A DNA stretch of 36,769 nt from Pseudomonadota bacterium. GTDB lineage: Bacteria > Pseudomonadota > Gammaproteobacteria > Burkholderiales > JBEEJL01. The stretch is taken from positions 1 to 36,769 of the forward strand of contig JAYVJD010000306.1 of NCBI GenBank assembly GCA_043769625.1, read 5' to 3'. The notes beneath the pieces were generated by a model. That model ran no database searches. It was not told where the DNA came from and was given only the letters and a program-made list of their open reading frames with translations. The position numbers and the translations under genes are program-made. Shown here piece by piece: positions 26,494 through 33,455 of the stretch. The stretch's first letter is position 1, and each line of letters opens with the position of its first letter.

Positions 26494-26644
26494 GTTGTGT
26501 GTCCTGAAAAATACTGCGCTAAAAATGACGGTTAGTGATAAAGCTGAACCCCACATTTTACGCTATTAGCCCATATCGGGGCAAGTTAGCTGTGTGAGTC
26601 GTATGAACAGCCGTCGGCGAACGGCCGCGCACCTGAAAGGAATT

Positions 26645-26662
26645 TTAATAACTATTTGATTT
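26645..26662 (-). repeat. Copy of the AATCAAATAGTTAT motif (IHF-consensus-like)
   Basis: The minus strand reads AAATCAAATAGTTATTAA, identical to 10977-10994. It lies just after the yhhQ stop and upstream of rpsP. Confidence 0.6.
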
Positions 26663-26671
26663 TATTGATAT

Positions 26672-27382
26672 TTATTCTTTAAGCGTAAACGGATTAAAGT
26701 CCGTGTCGCGGTCGTAATAGTCTTCTTGCTCCGCGCGTTTAAGCCAATTGACGATTTTATACGTCATTGGCGTGAAGGCGATTTCGACACCGACTTTGGT
26801 AATAAATTGCGCCAACATCACCGTTGGTAATTTGTCGTCGGGAATAATTCCGGTACCGTAAAACGCCAGCGGATAAAATAAAAGTGAATCGACCGCTTCG
26901 CCAAAAATCGTCGAGCCGATGGTGCGGCTCCACAAGTGTTTGCCCGCCGTGAGGATTTTCATTTTCGCCAACACAAACGAATTCACAAACTCGCCGCAAG
27001 CAAAAGCGATGAGCGAAGCGAGAGCAACCCGCCACGCACCACCGAACGCGATTTCGTAAGCTTGCTGATTTTTCCACCACGGCGCGGGCGGCAAACTCAC
27101 CACCACCCAGGCCATAAACGACGCAAACAACAGCGCGGCAAAGCCGGCCCAAATCACCCGACGCGAGCGCGCGTAGCCGTACACCTCGGTGAGAATGTCG
27201 CCGAATACGTACGAAATTGGAAAAAATAACACGCCGGCGCCAAAAGTGATCACGCCGATAATCGGCAAATCCAGCTGCGCACCTTTGGCCGGCCCGATGA
27301 GGTTCGAGCACAGCAACACGACGACAAACGCCGTCATCACTAGATCGAAATATTTATAATTAGCGCGAGGAGGTGAAGTCAT
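26672..27382 (-). CDS. yhhQ: Queuosine-precursor transporter (YhhQ/VUT family)
   Basis: 236 aa, 6 TM. FPISYVFGDILTEVYGY...GEFVNSFVLAKMK...STIFGEAVDSLLFYPLAF is the COG1738/YhhQ pattern. Confidence 0.88.
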   Translation of the reverse strand: MTSPPRANYKYFDLVMTAFVVVLLCSNLIGPAKGAQLDLPIIGVITFGAGVLFFPISYVFGDILTEVYGYARSRRVIWAGFAALLFASFMAWVVVSLPPAPWWKNQQAYEIAFGGAWRVALASLIAFACGEFVNSFVLAKMKILTAGKHLWSRTIGSTIFGEAVDSLLFYPLAFYGTGIIPDDKLPTVMLAQFITKVGVEIAFTPMTYKIVNWLKRAEQEDYYDRDTDFNPFTLKE

Positions 27383-27643: not shown

Positions 27644-28192
27644 TTAATTCAAATTCACCGCGCGCAATTCCCATACACCCGCAGGCGGCGCGTTGCGCCA
27701 AATAAAATTCGTTCGCGTCCAGACGAAACCGACGGGGGCAGTAAACGGCTCGCGCGGCTGGTAGGTAAACTGGATCAATTTTCGGATCGGCGATACGCGC
27801 AAAAAAGCGCAAATGCTGGCCACGGTTTCTTGCGTAATGTGGGGCGGCAGCGAACGAAACGGCAGACTCGACACCAGTGCCGTGTTCAGCGGTGCATCGG
27901 TCAAATTATCGATCACTTGCTTCGCCGTATCATTGCGCACATCAATATCGGGAAATTTTTGTTGCAGCTTGCGCGCCAGGCCCGACTCCAGCTCGACCGC
28001 AATCAACGGCACATCAGGATGCGAACCGATTAACGCTTTGGTTACCGAGCCCGTGCCGGCACCTAACTCCACCACCAAGTCAGCCCTATTCGTCGCGCGC
28101 GCCATCGCGTTGGCGAGATACTTCGACGAAGGCGCCAAGCAGCCCATCGTCGCCGGGTTTCTGATCAAAGAAATAAAAAATTGTGCAGACAT
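27644..28192 (-). CDS. Small class I SAM-dependent methyltransferase (COG3963 / phospholipid N-methyltransferase-like)
   Basis: FISLIRNPATMGCLAPSSKYLA (family N-terminal motif). SAM motif I is VVELGAGTGSVTKAL. 182 aa. Confidence 0.75.
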   Translation of the reverse strand: MSAQFFISLIRNPATMGCLAPSSKYLANAMARATNRADLVVELGAGTGSVTKALIGSHPDVPLIAVELESGLARKLQQKFPDIDVRNDTAKQVIDNLTDAPLNTALVSSLPFRSLPPHITQETVASICAFLRVSPIRKLIQFTYQPREPFTAPVGFVWTRTNFIWRNAPPAGVWELRAVNLN

Positions 28193-28359
28193 ATGTCTTT
28201 TCTCTTTCGAGTTTTACGGCAGGAGTAAAAAACATAAAGTCTGGCGGAGTAATCAGACCAGACAAACTAATTATGACGCAATTAATTAGCGTGAGCGATA
28301 GCTAAAGTCAAATTACCATTAAAAAATATGATAATTATAAATAAAAACAAATAGTTATA
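27912..28359. repeat. Direct repeat, copy A: 5' 281 nt of the methyltransferase gene plus its divergent promoter region
   Basis: Aligns with 29672-30109 at a constant offset of 1760 nt through the coding part. See findings for hand-counted identity. Confidence 0.85.
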
Positions 28360-28610
28360 TGTATTATTTATTCGCGACGAAGTGTGCATGTAGCAAGGTA
28401 AAGACGCGACAAAACGAATGGTAGCCACGGCGGCTTCAGGCTGCGCGGCGCAAAACTTGTATTTCCTCATTTGTGAACTATATTTTGATTAAGTACAAAT
28501 ATTATGTTCTCTTGGGAGGCGTTTTTCGGCGACAACCCGAATTTGTATAGCAAGAAATTCCATCAGAGAATTTGTTCGGAAATAATAACGGGGCCAAAGC
28601 GCAGAGATTG

Positions 28611-29258
28611 ATGAATAAAAAATTGCAAAAGCTGTTCGTGTTTTTATTGTGTGTCATTTCCTTTTTACTCCTGATGCATTTTTTCCCCGCCAGCGTTTCC
28701 CACACCATCGCCAATCGTTTTGATCTCAATGGTGAAGCAAACGCCCCCTCATGGTTCTCCACCATCGTGCTGTTTTCCGTCGCGCTGACGGCAATCGCTA
28801 TCTACACAGTAGAGGAATTAGGGGCGGCGCCTGAGCGCCTATGGCCCCGATTTTGGCTCACTTTCGCCGCCGTTTATGTATTCCTCTCGCTTGATGAAGC
28901 CGCACGTATCCACGAAATATTGGACGTCGTCCTGATTAAGTGGGTCCTCATTTATGCGCCGTTTGCCGGGGTATTTTTCATGGCCTGCGTTTACAATTTC
29001 ACCGCCATCAGAAAACAAGACCCGCATCTGCGTTTTTGGATCTTGGGCGGCTTAATCGCCTACGCGGCAGGCGGTCTCGGCGCAGAATCCGTCAGCCACA
29101 TCCTCCGCCCGTTGCCCAATTTTTGGCAGCAAGTCGAATACGTCATCGAAGAAGGCCTGGAAATGATTGGCATGTCGATGGTGCTGATGGGATGTCTGCA
29201 GGAACTACTGCGCGTGTATAAGCTCGCGAATCCACCGAAAGCCGCGCGAGTTAAATAA
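28611..29258 (+). CDS. Multi-pass membrane protein, function unknown
   Basis: About 215 aa from the ATG at 28611 (the ORF track TTG is at 28572). Six predicted helices. No recognisable motif and a weak RBS. Confidence 0.55.
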   Translation: MNKKLQKLFVFLLCVISFLLLMHFFPASVSHTIANRFDLNGEANAPSWFSTIVLFSVALTAIAIYTVEELGAAPERLWPRFWLTFAAVYVFLSLDEAARIHEILDVVLIKWVLIYAPFAGVFFMACVYNFTAIRKQDPHLRFWILGGLIAYAAGGLGAESVSHILRPLPNFWQQVEYVIEEGLEMIGMSMVLMGCLQELLRVYKLANPPKAARVK

Positions 29259-29335: not shown

Positions 29336-29626
29336 ATGAAAAAATTACGCAACATCCATCCCGGCGAAATATTGCTCGAAGAATTTTTAACGCCGATGAG
29401 CCTCAGCCAAAACGCGCTCGCTTGTTCCATCAGTGTTCCGCCTCGTCGTATAAATGAAATTGTGCTCGGCAAACGTAGTGTCAGCGCAGATACGGCCTTG
29501 CGCCTTGCGCGCGTATTCGGTACGAGCGAAGCATTCTGGATGGGATTGCAGGCCGACTACGATCTTGAGTTGGCGCGCGAACAAATAGCGCCGATGTTGC
29601 GTGGGATTGAAAAGATTGCAGCCTGA
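29336..29626 (+). CDS. higA: HigA-family antitoxin (XRE-type HTH)
   Basis: MKKLRNIHPGEILLEEFLTPMSLSQNALACSISVPPRRINEIVLGKRSVSADTALRLARVFGTSEAFWMGLQADYDLE is the canonical HigA/VapI sequence. SD AGGAGA lies 5 nt upstream. Confidence 0.9.
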   Translation: MKKLRNIHPGEILLEEFLTPMSLSQNALACSISVPPRRINEIVLGKRSVSADTALRLARVFGTSEAFWMGLQADYDLELAREQIAPMLRGIEKIAA

Positions 29627-29656
29627 TAAAAAATATTCGAACCTGACCCCTTAATC

Positions 29657-29952
29657 CCCGTGAAGCCATCAATCACTTGCTTCGCCGTGTCATGACGCAC
29701 ATCTATCTCAGGGAATTTTTGTTGTAACTTCTTCGCCAGGCCCGACTCTAACTCCACCGCAATCAAGGGCACATCAGGATGTGAGCCGATCAAAGCCTTA
29801 GTCACCGAACCCGTGCCCGCGCCCAACTCAACCACCAGCTCAGCCCGATCCGTCGCCCGCGCCATAGCATTCGCGAGATACTTGGAAGAAGGCGCCAGAC
29901 AACCCATCGTCGCCGGGTTTCTGATCAAGGAAATAAAAAACTGTGCGGACAT
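29657..29952 (-). pseudogene. Truncated paralogue (5' ~98 codons) of the SAM methyltransferase gene
   Basis: The first 94 aa differ from the 27644-28192 product at only 5 positions. Homology is lost after DTAKQVID(G/N)(F/L)T, and the frame then runs through the region downstream of higA and into the antisense of its 3' end to a stop at 29557. Confidence 0.8.
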
Positions 29953-30109
29953 TAGGTCTTTCAGTTTTGTTGGCGGAGTGAAAATGATGAAGTCTGGTGT
30001 AAGCCAGACTAGGTAACGAATTATGACGTAATTAAATTGATGGCGCGATAGTTAATTGTGAAACAATTTTTTAAAAATGATAATATATTGTATAAAATCA
30101 AATAATTAC
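29672..30109. repeat. Direct repeat, copy B (methyltransferase 5' fragment plus divergent promoter region)
   Basis: Pairs with 27912-28359. Confidence 0.85.
30056..30084 (+). promoter_or_regulatory. Candidate sigma70 promoter for the deaminase gene
   Basis: TTGTGA - 17 nt - GATAAT, about 150 nt upstream of the ATG at 30233, inside repeat copy B. Confidence 0.4.
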
Positions 30110-30232
30110 GAGTTATTGAGTAGATGTTCAGCACGGCATCTACAACACAATAATTAAACTAATTTAACTAAAAACCTAAAATTAATCTAAGGTGTTGTGA
30201 CACAAACAACTCAATAAAATCAGGAGGCAATA

Positions 30233-31798
30233 ATGGCAAAAACTATCCGAAAAAATATCAGTCCAAAAAAATCGATCCAAAAAAACAAAACACCTCTGCT
30301 TGAGCATAATAAAACCCCTGAGCTTTTTTTCGGCTTAATAGCGCCATCCGGGACAGATCTAACACAACCAATAGCCAGTTTAAAAAGTGAACTTCAAAAG
30401 CTCAGATATAAGGTTAAAGAGGTAAATTTAAGTGGCCTTATAACAAGTTTTTTAACAAAAAATACGTCCACTCAAAATGAAAAAGATAGGTTAACAAATT
30501 TAATGAGATATGGCACAGAAATTAGAGAGAAAACTTCAAGAGGAGATGCGATTGCTCTATTAGGAATTTCAGAAATACAACGTTTACGAAATCTTGAAAG
30601 TGAAGATGATATTGGAGTTGCATATATTATTAAGTCGCTAAAACATTCTGAAGAAATAAATACTTTGCGAAAAGTTTATGGCCAAGGATTTTATTCGGTA
30701 TCAGTTTATTCTCCTAGGGGTTCAAGAATTAATGAGCTAGCTAGCCGAATCGAAAAGTCCAAATCCAGCAAGCATGGTTCTCGTTCAGAAGCAGAGGCCC
30801 TAGTAGAAAGAGATGAGTCTGAAAAAGGACATCCATTAGGTCAAAACGTAAAGGATGCTTTTCCGCTAGCTGATTTTTTCCTAGACGTAAGAATAAAGAA
30901 AAAAATTAATGATGAGATAAAGAGATTTATTGAATTAATTTTTTCACATCCCTATCACACGCCTACGAAAGATGAGTATGCAATGTACCATGCAAAATCT
31001 GCGGCTTTACGGTCCGCAGATTTAGGTAGGCAAGTGGGAGCATCAATTACAACAAAAAACTGTGATTTGATTTCAATTGGTTGTAATGATGTTCCTCGCT
31101 CAGGTGGTGGTTTGTACTGGCCTGATGATGAAGAGGACGGTCGAGATTTTCGTAAAGGCAATGATCCTATACATGAACAGAAGGAACAAATTCTTGGCGA
31201 GCTAATAGAGCGTTTACGTGATAATAAATGGTTGTCGAAGCCTTTAAAAGACCAAGCTCCCCAAAATTTATTAAACGAATCATTGGTCGGTAAATATAAA
31301 CATGTATTTAAAGATACTTTGGTAATGAATTTGTTAGAGTTTGGTAGAAGTGTGCATGCAGAAATGGCGGCGTTGATGGATTCAGCAAGAAGAGGTGTTT
31401 CAGTAAAGGGAGCAACGCTATATACAACTACATTCCCATGCCACCTCTGCGCAAAGCATATCATCGCATCAGGTATAGACCGGGTTGTATATATTGAGCC
31501 CTATCCAAAAAGTAGGGCGCTTAATTTATTTGATGATTCAATAAGTGTTGATGGGGCGAAAGACGCATCAAATAAAATTTCTTTTGAACCATTTGTTGGA
31601 GTTGCGCCAAGGCAATATTTGAATCTTTTTGAAGCACCTATTGATAGAAAAGATAATCGAGGAAAAATAATTGATTGGCCTGCGAACGGATTCATTCCCC
31701 GAGTGAAAAGATTAACAGATACTTATATTTTTCTCGAAACTCGAATAATCGCTGAAATTATCCCCAAAATGAAGCTGGTTGCAAAATCTATTGTTTGA
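30233..31798 (+). CDS. Kinase-like / dCMP-deaminase fusion protein: AvcD (DcdV) / anti-phage dCTP-deaminase-type defence protein
   Basis: C-terminal zinc deaminase motifs VHAEMAAL and FPCHLCAKHII, preceded by DEYAMYHAKSAALRSADLGRQVGASI. The N-terminal domain begins with a degenerate P-loop-like ELFFGLIAPSGTDLTQ. 521 aa, strong SD (CAGGAGG), ~35% GC by eye. Confidence 0.8.
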   Translation: MAKTIRKNISPKKSIQKNKTPLLEHNKTPELFFGLIAPSGTDLTQPIASLKSELQKLRYKVKEVNLSGLITSFLTKNTSTQNEKDRLTNLMRYGTEIREKTSRGDAIALLGISEIQRLRNLESEDDIGVAYIIKSLKHSEEINTLRKVYGQGFYSVSVYSPRGSRINELASRIEKSKSSKHGSRSEAEALVERDESEKGHPLGQNVKDAFPLADFFLDVRIKKKINDEIKRFIELIFSHPYHTPTKDEYAMYHAKSAALRSADLGRQVGASITTKNCDLISIGCNDVPRSGGGLYWPDDEEDGRDFRKGNDPIHEQKEQILGELIERLRDNKWLSKPLKDQAPQNLLNESLVGKYKHVFKDTLVMNLLEFGRSVHAEMAALMDSARRGVSVKGATLYTTTFPCHLCAKHIIASGIDRVVYIEPYPKSRALNLFDDSISVDGAKDASNKISFEPFVGVAPRQYLNLFEAPIDRKDNRGKIIDWPANGFIPRVKRLTDTYIFLETRIIAEIIPKMKLVAKSIV

Positions 31799-31879
31799 GT
31801 TAATATAGATGGTGTAATTTGCAATGTATGATTTACTAATAAAATAATTAAATTAACTCTAAATAGTTTGGAGGCAATT

Positions 31880-32062
31880 ATGGCAAAACCAGCGGAGATT
31901 AACTGGGATGACCAGATAAAACAGGCTCAAGATGAAATTAAATCTTGGTCTAAGTCGGTACAATTAAATACCCGGCTTGATAAAGGCTTTAGTGCCGTAG
32001 CTGAGCCGATTCAAACAAGTTCAAAGTTAGTAGCCAAAAAGACATCGAATCAACGTGATTAA
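31880..32062 (+). CDS. Small hypothetical protein (60 aa) downstream of the deaminase
   Basis: MAKPAEINWDDQIKQAQDEIKSWSKSV... Its SD and start context, GGAGGCAATTATGGCAAAA, matches that of the deaminase gene at 18 of 19 nt. Same strand and same AT-rich islet. Confidence 0.5.
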   Translation: MAKPAEINWDDQIKQAQDEIKSWSKSVQLNTRLDKGFSAVAEPIQTSSKLVAKKTSNQRD

Positions 32063-32105
32063 TTTCAAGATAATTTGAGTCTATGGGATGGCTCATTTAT
32101 TTGTG

Positions 32106-33455
32106 CTATCCCACCCCCGGAAATCTCCCCTTCATCCCGCGCATCATTTTTGCCATGCCGCCTTTTTGCATGCTCTTCATCATTTTCTGCATTTGTTCGA
32201 ATTGATTTAACAGGCGATTCACTTCCTGTACTTGCACGCCTGCGCCGGCGGCGATGCGGCGTTTGCGTGTGGCTTTTATTAGTGCGGGGAATTGGCGTTC
32301 TTGTTTGGTCATGGAGTTGATGATGCCTTCGGTGCGGCCTAGCGCTTTGTCATCGACTTGCGGATTGCCTTGGGCGATTTTGCCCATTTGCGCGGGGAGT
32401 TTGTCCATGAGAGAACTTAAGCCGCCCATTTTTTTCATTTGTTGTAATTGGCTTTTGAAATCTTCGAGGTCGAAGTCTTTGCCTTTTTTCATTTTCAGCG
32501 CGAGCTTTTCGGCTTCGGCTTTGTCGATGCCTTGATGCGCTTGTTCGATCAGCGATAACACGTCGCCCATGCCGAGGATGCGCGAGGCCATGCGCTCGGG
32601 GTGGAAGGCTTCGAGGCCGGTGAGTTTTTCGCCGACGCCGATAAATTTGATCGGCTTTTGCGTGACGTGTCGCACTGATAGCGCCGCGCCGCCACGCGAA
32701 TCGCCATCGAGTTTGGTGAGGATGATGCCGGTCAGCGGCAACGCGTCACCGAAAGCTTTGGCGACATTCACTGCGTCCTGGCCTTGCATCGCATCGACGA
32801 CGAACAGGGTTTCGATGGGTTGGAGCGATGAATGTAACTGTTTGATTTCATTCATCATTTCTTCATCTATCGCGAGGCGTCCGGCGGTATCGACGATGAG
32901 CACATCATGAAAATGTTTTTTCGCGTAGTCCTGCGCGGCGAGCGCGATGTCGTTCGGTTTTTGTGCTTTGTCCGACGCGAAAAAATCCACGTCGAGTTGT
33001 TTGGCTAGCAGTTTTAATTGTTCGATGGCGGCGGGGCGATACACGTCGCAACTCACTAACAATACTTTTTTCTTTTGCTCTTTTAATAATTTCGCCAGCT
33101 TGCCGCTGCTGGTGGTTTTGCCCGATCCTTGCAAGCCGGCCATGAGAATAATCGCGGGCGGCACGGTGGCGAGGTTGATGCCTTCGCTCGTGCCGCCCAT
33201 GAGTTCGATCAACTCGCGATGCACCACGCCGACCAACTCTTGTCCGGGTGACAGGCTTTGCAACACGTCGATGCCGAGGGCTTTTTCTTTCACGCGCGCG
33301 ATGAAATCTTTGACCACCGGCAGGGCGACGTCGGCTTCGAGCAGCGCCATGCGCACTTCGCGCATCGCGTCTGAGATATTGTCTTCGGTCAGGCGCGATT
33401 GTCCGCGCAAGGTTTTGATTACGCCGCCGAGGCGCTGGGTTAAATTCTCAAACAT
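32106..33455 (-). CDS. ffh: Signal recognition particle protein Ffh
   Basis: MFENLTQRLGGVIKTLRG...GLQGSGKTTSSGKLA...DTAGRL... plus a Met-rich M domain (MQKMMKSMQKGGMAKMMRGM). Confidence 0.98.
   Translation of the reverse strand: MFENLTQRLGGVIKTLRGQSRLTEDNISDAMREVRMALLEADVALPVVKDFIARVKEKALGIDVLQSLSPGQELVGVVHRELIELMGGTSEGINLATVPPAIILMAGLQGSGKTTSSGKLAKLLKEQKKKVLLVSCDVYRPAAIEQLKLLAKQLDVDFFASDKAQKPNDIALAAQDYAKKHFHDVLIVDTAGRLAIDEEMMNEIKQLHSSLQPIETLFVVDAMQGQDAVNVAKAFGDALPLTGIILTKLDGDSRGGAALSVRHVTQKPIKFIGVGEKLTGLEAFHPERMASRILGMGDVLSLIEQAHQGIDKAEAEKLALKMKKGKDFDLEDFKSQLQQMKKMGGLSSLMDKLPAQMGKIAQGNPQVDDKALGRTEGIINSMTKQERQFPALIKATRKRRIAAGAGVQVQEVNRLLNQFEQMQKMMKSMQKGGMAKMMRGMKGRFPGVG

What the first reader, a model, noticed from the sequence alone, without database searches (positions are those of the whole stretch)
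30233..31798. AvcD / dCTP-deaminase-type anti-phage gene in an AT-rich islet that splits the ffh-rpsP junction
This is a 521-aa ORF. The C-terminal half has the zinc signature of the CMP/dCMP deaminase fold (VHAEMAAL ... FPCHLCAKHII), preceded by the usual DEYAMYHAKSAALRSADLGRQVGASI helix-strand. A ~70-aa insertion sits before the HAE helix. The N-terminal ~230 aa open with a degenerate P-loop-like element (ELFFGLIAPSGTDLTQ), as in nucleotide-kinase-like domains. This architecture and size match two published systems that deplete deoxycytidine nucleotides during infection: the single-gene dCTP deaminase defence (Tal et al. 2022) and V. cholerae AvcD/DcdV (Hsueh, Severin et al. 2022). The gene is ~35% GC by eye against more than 50% for the adjacent ffh. 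It sits where ffh and rpsP are normally neighbours, so it is most likely horizontally acquired. The family is known, but this locus (flanking repeat, small downstream ORF, no obvious regulator) is uncharacterised.
Basis: partly seen in the sequence, partly recalled or inferred. Interest (0 to 1): 0.8.

Follow-up and report, generated by a model that had tools for sequence, protein, structure and literature searches.

The report
Anti-phage dCTP deaminase with small partner
The gene is a clear member of the known anti-phage dCTP deaminase (AvcD) family sitting in a swappable defence slot next to ffh, and the small ORF behind it belongs to a conserved partner-protein family that I could not find described, and that is fused to the enzyme in some relatives.

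Summary
The 521-aa ORF (30233-31798, +) is real. It passes the curated models for the anti-phage dCTP deaminase family: NCBIfam NF041025 at 466 bits (cutoff 400) and PADLOC dCTPase at 556 bits. It has an intact HAE...PCxxC zinc site, and its N-terminal domain folds like a P-loop kinase but lacks the Walker lysine. Its GC is 36.7% against 53.8% for ffh.

The cassette-specific DNA is 30109-32106. It fills a slot between ffh and a resident HigA-like HTH/methyltransferase. Close relatives carry AbiE, an ATPase system or an unknown 529-aa gene in the same slot, so this is a defence hotspot.

The new result concerns the 60-aa downstream ORF (31880-32062).
- Homologues lie immediately downstream, on the same strand, in 82 of 105 assessable deaminase loci.
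- They show a protein-coding codon pattern.
- The ORF start overlaps the deaminase stop in 15 of 61 loci.
- They are fused in frame to the deaminase C-terminus in a 12-cluster subclade.
- They match no Pfam, NCBIfam or PADLOC family.

The tested E. coli ETEC AvcID homologue (30% identical) has an upstream AvcI locus instead and lacks this ORF.

Verdict: a known enzyme family in a likely new two-protein variant. The partner's role, regulator or antitoxin-like, is inferred and not shown.

The parts
30233..31798 (+). Anti-phage dCTP deaminase gene (521 aa). N-terminal P-loop-kinase-like domain at about res 30-236 (nt 30320-30940). CDA-fold deaminase domain at about res 245-436 (nt 30965-31540), with a roughly 77-aa helical insertion (res about 287-372). 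C-terminal helix at res 497-518.
   Evidence: ORF. NF041025 466.5 bits against cutoff 400. PADLOC dCTPase 556 bits. PF00383. AF2 model plus Foldseek hits. Family alignment.
31355..31363 (+). Codons for H375-A376-E377, the zinc ligand and catalytic glutamate of the deaminase.
   Evidence: Invariant in alignments of 29 and 52 homologues.
31436..31450 (+). Codons for P402-C403-H404-L405-C406 (PCxxC zinc ligands).
   Evidence: P402, C403 and C406 are invariant.
30332..30358 (+). Degenerate P-loop G34-LIAPS-G40-T41-D42, with no Walker lysine.
   Evidence: G34, P38 and G40 are invariant or nearly so. The clade consensus is GLVGPxGxDL. ETEC AvcD has GFAGCGMKT at the same place.
31880..32062 (+). Small partner gene (60 aa, MAKPAEINWDDQIKQAQDEIKSWSKSV...). 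It has a conserved N-terminal helix/W motif followed by a polar tail. GGAGG lies at 31870-31874.
   Evidence: Homologues sit immediately downstream, on the same strand, in 82 of 105 assessable loci, and 2 more loci carry fusions. Codon-position entropy shows protein-level selection. The fusion clade is P0136-P0147. No Pfam, NCBIfam or PADLOC match.
32076..32105 (+). Terminator-like hairpin plus T-run after the small ORF, facing the convergent ffh stop.
   Evidence: This is a consensus match only.
30109..30232 (+). Cassette-specific upstream DNA (25% GC over 30056-30232), with promoter-like hexamers just upstream at 30056-30106.
   Evidence: Homology to relatives without the deaminase ends at 30056/30108. 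Promoter scan. RNA fold z = -1.58 and no Rfam match.
29663..30108 (-). Partial second copy of the methyltransferase 5' end (pseudogene ORF 29557-29952) with its upstream region. This is the left junction of the deaminase cassette.
   Evidence: 83% identical to 27908-28305. 83.5% identical to the methyltransferase upstream region of L007, where cargo abuts it directly.
29336..29626 (+). Resident HigA-family HTH gene (96 aa). It lies upstream of the variable cargo in this lineage and has no HigB partner.
   Evidence: TIGR02607 at 106 bits. 85-90% identical in relatives that carry different cargo. It lies 72 nt upstream of the deaminase in L003.
32106..33455 (-). ffh (SRP54), the conserved right border of the slot.
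   Evidence: Homology to relatives resumes at 32107-32112.

Best explanation
The 30109-32106 segment is a horizontally acquired two-gene defence cassette.

Gene 1 is an anti-phage dCTP deaminase of the AvcD/dCTP-deaminase family. By analogy with tested members, it deaminates dCTP and dCMP to dUTP and dUMP on infection, which starves phage DNA replication of dC nucleotides. Its zinc site is intact. Its N-terminal kinase-like domain has a lysine-less P-loop, so it probably binds nucleotide rather than transferring phosphate.

Gene 2 encodes a 60-aa protein with a conserved amphipathic helix, a W-motif and a non-conserved polar tail. It is co-transcribed with the enzyme and most likely binds it near its C-terminal helix. 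I infer that it is the regulatory subunit that keeps the enzyme silent until infection, a labile protein counterpart of the AvcI RNA. A sensor or assembly role is not excluded.

Shown: family membership, fold, conserved catalytic residues, cassette borders, hotspot behaviour, and the conservation, coding status and fusion of the small ORF. Inferred: enzymatic activity, defence, physical binding, and the direction of regulation.
For: Family membership. Fold.

Hotspot. The same slot holds AbiEi/AbiEii (L007-9), a HEC-01A/AriA-like ATPase plus a mad4-like gene (L098-100), or an unknown 529-aa gene (L101). The borders are at 30108 and 32107. The GC drop is 36.7% against 53.8%, and the deaminase is below its flanks in 42 of 45 loci.

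Partner gene.
- An iterated HMM over 1633 flanking ORFs gave 61 hits, all directly downstream and on the same strand. Ten more overlap the deaminase stop.
- Overall 82 loci have a separate small ORF and 2 have it fused, out of 105 assessable loci.
- Isolate genomes of Ferrigenium kumadai and Pseudomonas chlororaphis carry it as a two-gene islet.
- Third-codon-position entropy is about 1.95, against 0.2-0.65 at positions 1-2 in the conserved columns.
- The start overlaps the deaminase stop in 15 of 61 loci, and the gap is 40 nt or less in 51 of 61.
- In-frame C-terminal fusions occur in 12 cluster representatives that are 59-100% identical to one another. These come from several data sources, on contigs up to 971 kb. 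The fused module is modelled at pLDDT 83-93 in a pTM 0.90 model.

Link to AvcI. V. cholerae AvcD mutants that escape AvcI include K511E and Q514R near the C-terminus (bioRxiv 10.1101/2021.03.31.437871). This is consistent with a regulatory surface close to where the partner is attached in the fusions.
Against: - No experiment exists for this clade. All tested members (E. coli U09 and AW1.7, ETEC, V. cholerae, V. parahaemolyticus, P. mirabilis) are from other clades. ETEC AvcD is only 30% identical and lacks the small ORF.
- A covalently fused inhibitor cannot be removed by turnover, so the fusion clade fits an autoinhibitory, sensor or structural role better than a simple labile antitoxin.
- 21 of the 105 assessable loci show no detectable partner.
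- I could not obtain model coordinates, so the docking site is not known.
- In the window and its closest relative the second W of the motif is lost (WSKSV, WPQSV), and the gap to the deaminase is 81 nt rather than overlapping.
Confidence: 0.6

Rival explanations
1. This is a single-gene dCTP deaminase defence, as in Tal et al. The small ORF is a conserved passenger or a minor stabilising peptide that does not control activity.
For: E. coli dCTP deaminases defend when cloned with only their promoter regions. 21 of the 105 assessable loci lack a detectable small ORF. Only about 27 residues of the partner are conserved.
Against: The small ORF is the only recurrent neighbour across unrelated contexts. 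It shows strict position and strand, overlapping stop/start codons, protein-level selection and maintained in-frame fusions. The E. coli constructs carried the AvcI region, so they were not truly single-component systems.
Confidence: 0.2
2. This is an AvcID-type type III toxin-antitoxin locus. An unrecognised sRNA encoded just 5' of the deaminase (within 29953-30232) is the inhibitor, as AvcI is in Vibrio.
For: AvcI homologues share no sequence similarity, so failing to detect one is weak evidence. The upstream region is AT-rich with promoter-like hexamers at 30056-30106 and a 9-bp hairpin at about 30120-30143.
Against: Functional AvcI is 152-174 nt and the full transcript is about 300 nt. The cassette brings only 124 nt of its own upstream DNA, and in the closest relative the HTH stop lies 72 nt before the deaminase. 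The two upstream regions are not alignable. Fold z-score is -1.58 and there is no Rfam hit.
Confidence: 0.1
3. This is a housekeeping dCMP deaminase (ComEB/Dcd-like) for pyrimidine metabolism, or an inactive remnant, and not a defence gene.
For: The C-terminal domain matches dCMP deaminases by sequence and by fold.
Against: ComEB scores 57 bits against a cutoff of 219, whereas the anti-phage equivalog passes its cutoff. The gene has the two-domain 521-aa architecture, a low-GC cassette, presence/absence polymorphism among close relatives in a defence slot, and intact catalytic residues.
Confidence: 0.05

Closest known systems
Anti-phage dCTP deaminase (Tal et al. 2022; E. coli AW1.7/U09; NCBIfam NF041025, PADLOC dCTPase)
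   Same: Same two-domain architecture: an N-terminal kinase-like domain plus a C-terminal zinc deaminase with HAE/PCxxC. It passes the curated family models and lies in a defence-associated, horizontally moving context.
   Different: About 30-35% identical to the E. coli members. The P-loop lacks the Lys/Thr that E. coli proteins retain (GFAGCGMKT against GLIAPSGTD). It is followed by a conserved small protein gene that the E. coli loci lack.
AvcID (AvcD deaminase + AvcI sRNA; V. cholerae VSP-I, V. parahaemolyticus, P. mirabilis, ETEC p58)
   Same: Same enzyme family, and plausibly the same logic of an inhibited enzyme that is released on infection. It is a two-component operon with a very small second component.
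   Different: AvcI is an untranslated RNA encoded 5' of avcD. Here the conserved small component is 3' of the enzyme, is under protein-level selection and is fused to the enzyme in some lineages. No room or signal for an upstream AvcI was found.
dCMP/dCTP deaminases of known structure (human DCTD 2w4l, PBCV-1 bi-DCD 7fh4, S. mutans 2hvw, T4 Cd 1vq2)
   Same: CDA fold and zinc site. These are the best Foldseek and phmmer hits to residues about 245-436.
   Different: Those are single-domain enzymes of about 140-190 aa. They have no kinase-like domain, no 77-aa insertion and no partner peptide.
Fused toxin-antitoxin defence proteins such as CapRel(SJ46) (from my own knowledge, not tested here)
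   Same: A regulatory antitoxin-like element can be separate in some lineages and a C-terminal fusion in others, where it acts as an autoinhibitory or sensing module.
   Different: Unrelated fold and chemistry. This is an analogy only.

Membership tests
Anti-phage dCTP deaminase / AvcD family | C-terminal zinc-dependent CDA-fold deaminase domain with HAE...PCxxC | tested here: met
   PF00383 at 66.5 bits. H375, E377, C403 and C406 are invariant in the family alignments. Foldseek hits to dCMP deaminases.
Anti-phage dCTP deaminase / AvcD family | N-terminal P-loop kinase-like domain required for activity | tested here: met
   The fold matches adenylate-kinase-related proteins and dephospho-CoA kinase (3h0k, 3lw7, 2if2; TM-score normalised to the target 0.53-0.70). 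The P-loop is degenerate: GxxxxxGTD with no Walker Lys. The requirement for activity was not testable.
Anti-phage dCTP deaminase / AvcD family | Score above the curated family model cut-off | tested here: met
   NF041025 equivalog at 466.5 bits against a cutoff of 400, covering profile positions 1-437 of 437. PADLOC PDLC02373 at 556.4 bits.
Anti-phage dCTP deaminase / AvcD family | Location in defence islands or variable, horizontally exchanged loci | tested here: met
   The same slot carries AbiE, an ATPase system or an unknown gene in close relatives. GC is 36.7% against 50-54%.
Anti-phage dCTP deaminase / AvcD family | Deaminates dCTP/dCMP on infection and protects against phage | not testable with these tools
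   Needs expression, LC-MS and plaque assays.
AvcID type III toxin-antitoxin system | Untranslated AvcI sRNA (152-300 nt) immediately 5' of the deaminase, on the same strand and in the same operon | tested here: inconclusive
   No Rfam hit. Fold z-score is -1.58. Only 124 nt of cassette-own upstream DNA (72 nt in L003), and it is not conserved with the closest relative. AvcI has no conserved sequence, so absence cannot be proven.
Type II toxin-antitoxin (protein antitoxin) logic | Small co-operonic protein that binds and neutralises the toxin and is labile | not tested
   Only indirect support: a conserved adjacent small ORF, stop/start overlap, fusions and a polar tail that looks disordered. 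Binding, inhibition and turnover are untested.

The most novel reading that the evidence does not exclude
A large part of the anti-phage dCTP deaminase family (82 loci with a separate ORF plus 2 with a fusion, of 105 sampled) is a two-protein system. A roughly 60-aa protein (helix, WPxW-type motif, disordered tail) that I did not find in Pfam, NCBIfam, PADLOC or the papers I searched is the cognate regulator of the enzyme. It would take the place that the AvcI RNA holds in enterobacterial and Vibrio AvcID, and in one subclade it has become a C-terminal autoregulatory module by gene fusion.
Probability: 0.4. Interest if true: 0.7.

Novelty: new variant of a known kind. Interest (0 to 1): 0.5.

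Why it matters
The enzyme itself is a routine new member of a family that annotation pipelines already name.

What could matter is the partner. Current descriptions treat dCTP deaminase defence either as a single gene or as AvcD plus the AvcI RNA, and how the enzyme is kept silent outside the few tested enterobacterial and Vibrio systems is unknown. A small protein that is conserved, left unannotated in the one RefSeq plasmid record I checked and sometimes fused gives a concrete, testable candidate for that control in most environmental homologues. It would also be an example of an RNA regulator and a protein regulator serving the same toxin family.

The locus also documents a compact defence hotspot, ffh / HigA-like HTH, with at least four alternative cargos. 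One of them is an uncharacterised 529-aa gene.

Tried and rejected
- Exact look-up of the deaminase in the contig index found nothing, although the protein is in the cluster table as a singleton.
- The genome-contig scan returned only two distant loci. The source genome is not a species representative there.
- A word-indexed search and an exhaustive phmmer search with the single 60-aa sequence found only itself and the L003 orthologue. Single-sequence searches are too weak for this family, and the iterated local HMM was what worked.
- Pfam, NCBIfam and PADLOC gave nothing for the small ORF.
- Rfam found nothing in the whole window, and there are no tRNA or tmRNA genes that could serve as an integration site.
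- The upstream HTH as a cassette-borne regulator was rejected. It is 85-90% identical in relatives with unrelated cargo and occurs upstream of the deaminase only in this lineage, so it is a resident gene.
- The 'flanking repeat' as att-like ends of the deaminase islet was rejected. It is a partial duplication of the methyltransferase 5' region that brackets other genes.
- Model coordinates are not exposed, so I could not read the contacts of the fused module.
- Literature searches for a protein partner of AvcD or dCTP deaminase found none. The library is incomplete.
Full report
OBSERVATION. The ORF at 30233-31798 (+) is present as described: 521 aa, ATG start, preceded by AGGAGG. All quoted motifs are there. 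Pfam PF00383 aligns residues 245-421 to profile positions 2-101, which implies about 77 extra residues before the HAE helix. GC is 36.7% for the ORF and 35.3% for 30056-32105, against 53.8% for ffh and 50.2% for the whole window. ffh is at 32106-33455 (-), and rpsP-rimM-trmD-rplS run from about 26490 to 24360 (-).

WHAT THE GENE IS. The protein scores 466.5 bits on NCBIfam NF041025 'anti-phage dCTP deaminase', an equivalog model with a cutoff of 400, with full profile coverage. It scores 556 bits (E 2.7e-167) on the PADLOC dCTPase model. The housekeeping models ComEB, TadA and RibD are far below their cutoffs. More than 7000 homologues were scored at E<=1e-10. Several are named 'anti-phage dCTP deaminase' by NCBI, in Sulfuritalea, Paraburkholderia, Pseudomonas, Herbaspirillum and Duganella. 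In alignments of 29 and 52 homologues, H375, A376, E377, P402, C403 and C406 are invariant.

An AlphaFold2 model (pLDDT 82, pTM 0.78) was searched against the PDB. The C-terminal half matches dCMP deaminases, including human 2w4l, the PBCV-1 bifunctional dCMP/dCTP deaminase 7fh4, 2hvw and T4 1vq2. The N-terminal half matches P-loop kinases: the adenylate-kinase-related proteins 3h0k and 3lw7, and dephospho-CoA kinase 2if2. No full-length relative has a solved structure. The P-loop is degenerate. The clade consensus is GLVGPxGxDL, and here it is G34-LIAPS-G40-T-D, with no Walker Lys/Thr. ETEC AvcD has GFAGCGMKT at the same place. In E. coli AW1.7 and V. cholerae, mutations in both domains abolish function.

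THE LOCUS. The source is a Burkholderiales-type MAG contig, judged from the names on Ffh cluster members. The closest deaminase (79% identical, contigs L003-L006) sits in the same place: rplS-trmD-rimM-rpsP-SMR-Vut_1-methyltransferase-HTH-deaminase-60-aa ORF-ffh.

Relatives whose Ffh is at least 90% identical carry other cargo in the slot next to ffh:
- AbiEi/AbiEii (PADLOC 321 and 284 bits) in L007-L009.
- A HEC-01A/AriA-like ATPase plus a mad4-like gene in L098-L100.
- An unknown 529-aa gene in L101.

The HigA-family HTH gene (29336-29626; TIGR02607 at 106 bits) is 85-90% identical across these contigs, so it is a resident gene and not cargo. Homology between the window and the deaminase-free relatives stops at 30056/30108 and resumes at 32107-32112, the ffh stop. 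The cassette-specific DNA is therefore 30109-32106.

In the window, a partial second copy of the methyltransferase 5' end plus its upstream region (29663-30108) lies between the HTH gene and the deaminase. It is 83% identical to 27908-28305 and 83.5% identical to the L007 arrangement, in which cargo abuts that region directly. I read this as the scar of an allelic cargo replacement from a donor with an L007-like layout. That is an inference. Across the family the deaminase is lower in GC than its flanks in 42 of 45 loci, with a median of -8 points. The slot, however, is ffh/HTH-methyltransferase rather than ffh/rpsP.

THE SMALL ORF. The ORF at 31880-32062 (60 aa, GGAGG 5 nt upstream of the ATG) is 50% identical to the 60-aa ORF in L003. 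I fetched 80 metagenomic deaminase loci that are 40-57% identical to the window protein. From these and the Logan contigs I extracted all ORFs of at least 35 aa on both strands within 1.5 kb of the deaminase, 1633 ORFs in total, and iterated phmmer, hmmbuild and hmmsearch starting from the window and L003 peptides.

- The search converged on 61 hits. Every one is immediately downstream of the deaminase on the same strand, and none lies elsewhere.
- Ten more overlap the deaminase stop and had been excluded by my position filter.
- It is the only neighbour family that recurs across unrelated contexts.
- The isolate genomes of Ferrigenium kumadai and Pseudomonas chlororaphis show the same pair as a two-gene islet between housekeeping genes.
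- A Vibrio nigripulchritudo plasmid has the ORF, but it is not in the record's gene table as held here (PLSDB, which is incomplete).
- Over all 105 loci with enough downstream sequence, 82 have a separate small ORF, 2 have it fused and 21 show none.

The family consensus is MKKKGWLKEQIEEAQKEVESWPDWMKSAARLEG, followed by a non-conserved tail. The conserved core is about 27 aa. The tail is about 32 aa, 83% polar or small residues, 15% hydrophobic, with a net charge from -6 to +6. In the conserved columns, codon positions 1-2 have entropy 0.2-0.65 while position 3 is near 2.0. That is a protein-coding signature, not an RNA one. In 15 of 61 loci the ORF start overlaps the deaminase stop, and in 51 of 61 the gap is 40 nt or less. 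No Pfam, NCBIfam or PADLOC model matches.

FUSION. In L076 and L077 the motif (LAWLAAEVAAARAEAETWSDWKRRSLEGQV) is in frame at the C-terminus of the deaminase. A search with that protein found 12 cluster representatives of 546-556 aa, 59-100% identical to one another. They come from JGI, Logan, NCBI and ENA, on contigs up to 971 kb, and all carry the module. This is a maintained gene fusion and not an assembly error. In a neighbour-joining tree the fused proteins nest inside the clade with separate small ORFs, so the fusion is derived. The AF2 model of the fusion is confident (pLDDT 90.6, pTM 0.90). The module forms two helices (512-530 and 534-544) at pLDDT 83-93, which suggests that it packs on the enzyme.

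COMPARISON WITH THE TESTED SYSTEMS. AvcI (DifV) is an untranslated 152-174-nt RNA, with a full transcript of about 300 nt. It is encoded immediately 5' of avcD in the same operon, and it is lost on transcription shut-off, which releases AvcD. The tested E. coli genes were cloned with their promoter regions. ETEC H10407 p58 has a 61-aa 'hypothetical' ORF, which is the AvcI locus, 12 nt upstream of the deaminase, and a convergent rep gene 10 nt downstream. Other E. coli plasmid and chromosomal copies look similar, and none has the small-protein motif in any frame. ETEC AvcD is 30% identical to the window protein.

In the window clade there is little room for an AvcI-like RNA: 124 nt of cassette-own upstream DNA here, and 72 nt between the HTH stop and the deaminase in L003. 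The two upstream regions do not align, the fold z-score is -1.58 and Rfam finds nothing. V. cholerae AvcD mutants insensitive to AvcI include K511E and Q514R near the C-terminus, close to where the small protein is tethered in the fusions.

MECHANISM. Most likely, the cassette is transcribed from the AT-rich region at 30056-30232 through both genes to the hairpin at 32076-32105 (consensus matches only). The deaminase depletes dCTP and dCMP during infection. The small protein binds the enzyme and regulates it. I favour an inhibitory role as a labile antitoxin or sensor because of the family's known toxin-antitoxin logic, the disordered tail and the tight coupling. The fusion clade shows that simple turnover cannot be the whole story, and an assembly or activating role remains possible.

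My estimates are: membership in the family about 0.93, the small protein as a functional partner about 0.8, and an inhibitory or regulatory role about 0.4-0.5.

VERDICT. The added value is the conserved and sometimes fused small partner, which I could not find described, and the definition of a compact defence hotspot. I rate it a new variant of a known kind, with interest 0.5.

Noticed in passing
window 27908-28305 vs 29668-30055 (extending to 30108); ORF 29557-29952 (-): There is a partial duplicate (83% identical) of the 5' 285 bp of the PmtA-like methyltransferase gene plus its upstream region. It leaves a truncated 131-aa pseudo-ORF whose 3' end overlaps the HTH gene. It looks like a recombination scar from a cargo swap rather than an att site.
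   Followed up: partly
window 29336-29626 (+); L098:11317-11625, L101:11176-11466, L003:5768-5998: An orphan HigA-family HTH gene (no HigB) is 85-90% identical in relatives. There it sits directly upstream of, and co-oriented with, quite different defence cargos. It may be a resident regulator or anchor of the hotspot.
   Followed up: partly
L101:9421-11010 (-): A 529-aa protein with no Pfam or PADLOC match occupies the same ffh/HTH slot that holds the deaminase, AbiE or an ATPase system in relatives. It is a candidate uncharacterised defence gene.
   Followed up: no
window 28572-29258 (+): A 228-aa multi-pass membrane ORF (TTG start, host-like 51% GC) has no family match. It lies between the methyltransferase upstream region and the HTH gene only in this window. 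Relatives L003, L098 and L101 lack it.
   Followed up: no
window 26588-26669: The 109-aa SMR (Multi_Drug_Res) gene that lies between Vut_1 and rpsP in L003, L007, L098 and L101 is absent here. The gap is 83 nt, against about 511 nt in L007.
   Followed up: partly
window 26648-26675 / 28331-28358 (and 30092-30108): A 28-nt AT-rich inverted repeat (89% complementary) brackets the Vut_1-methyltransferase pair. A third partial copy lies in the duplicated upstream region. Its meaning is unknown and it may be chance in AT-rich DNA.
   Followed up: no
window 30223-30244 vs 31870-31891: The deaminase and the small ORF share nearly the same ribosome-binding and start context: GGAGGCAAT[A/T]ATGGCAAAA[A/C]C. 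Both proteins start MAK. A promoter-like site (31818-31848) lies in the unusually long 81-nt gap between them, so the small ORF may also be transcribed on its own.
   Followed up: partly
L094:1209-1394, L095:1249-1431, L102:2618-2803, L103:1349-1537: E. coli homologues all carry an annotated 'hypothetical protein' ORF of 60-62 aa just 5' of the deaminase. This is the AvcI position. The peptides are unrelated to each other and to the downstream small-protein family.
   Followed up: partly
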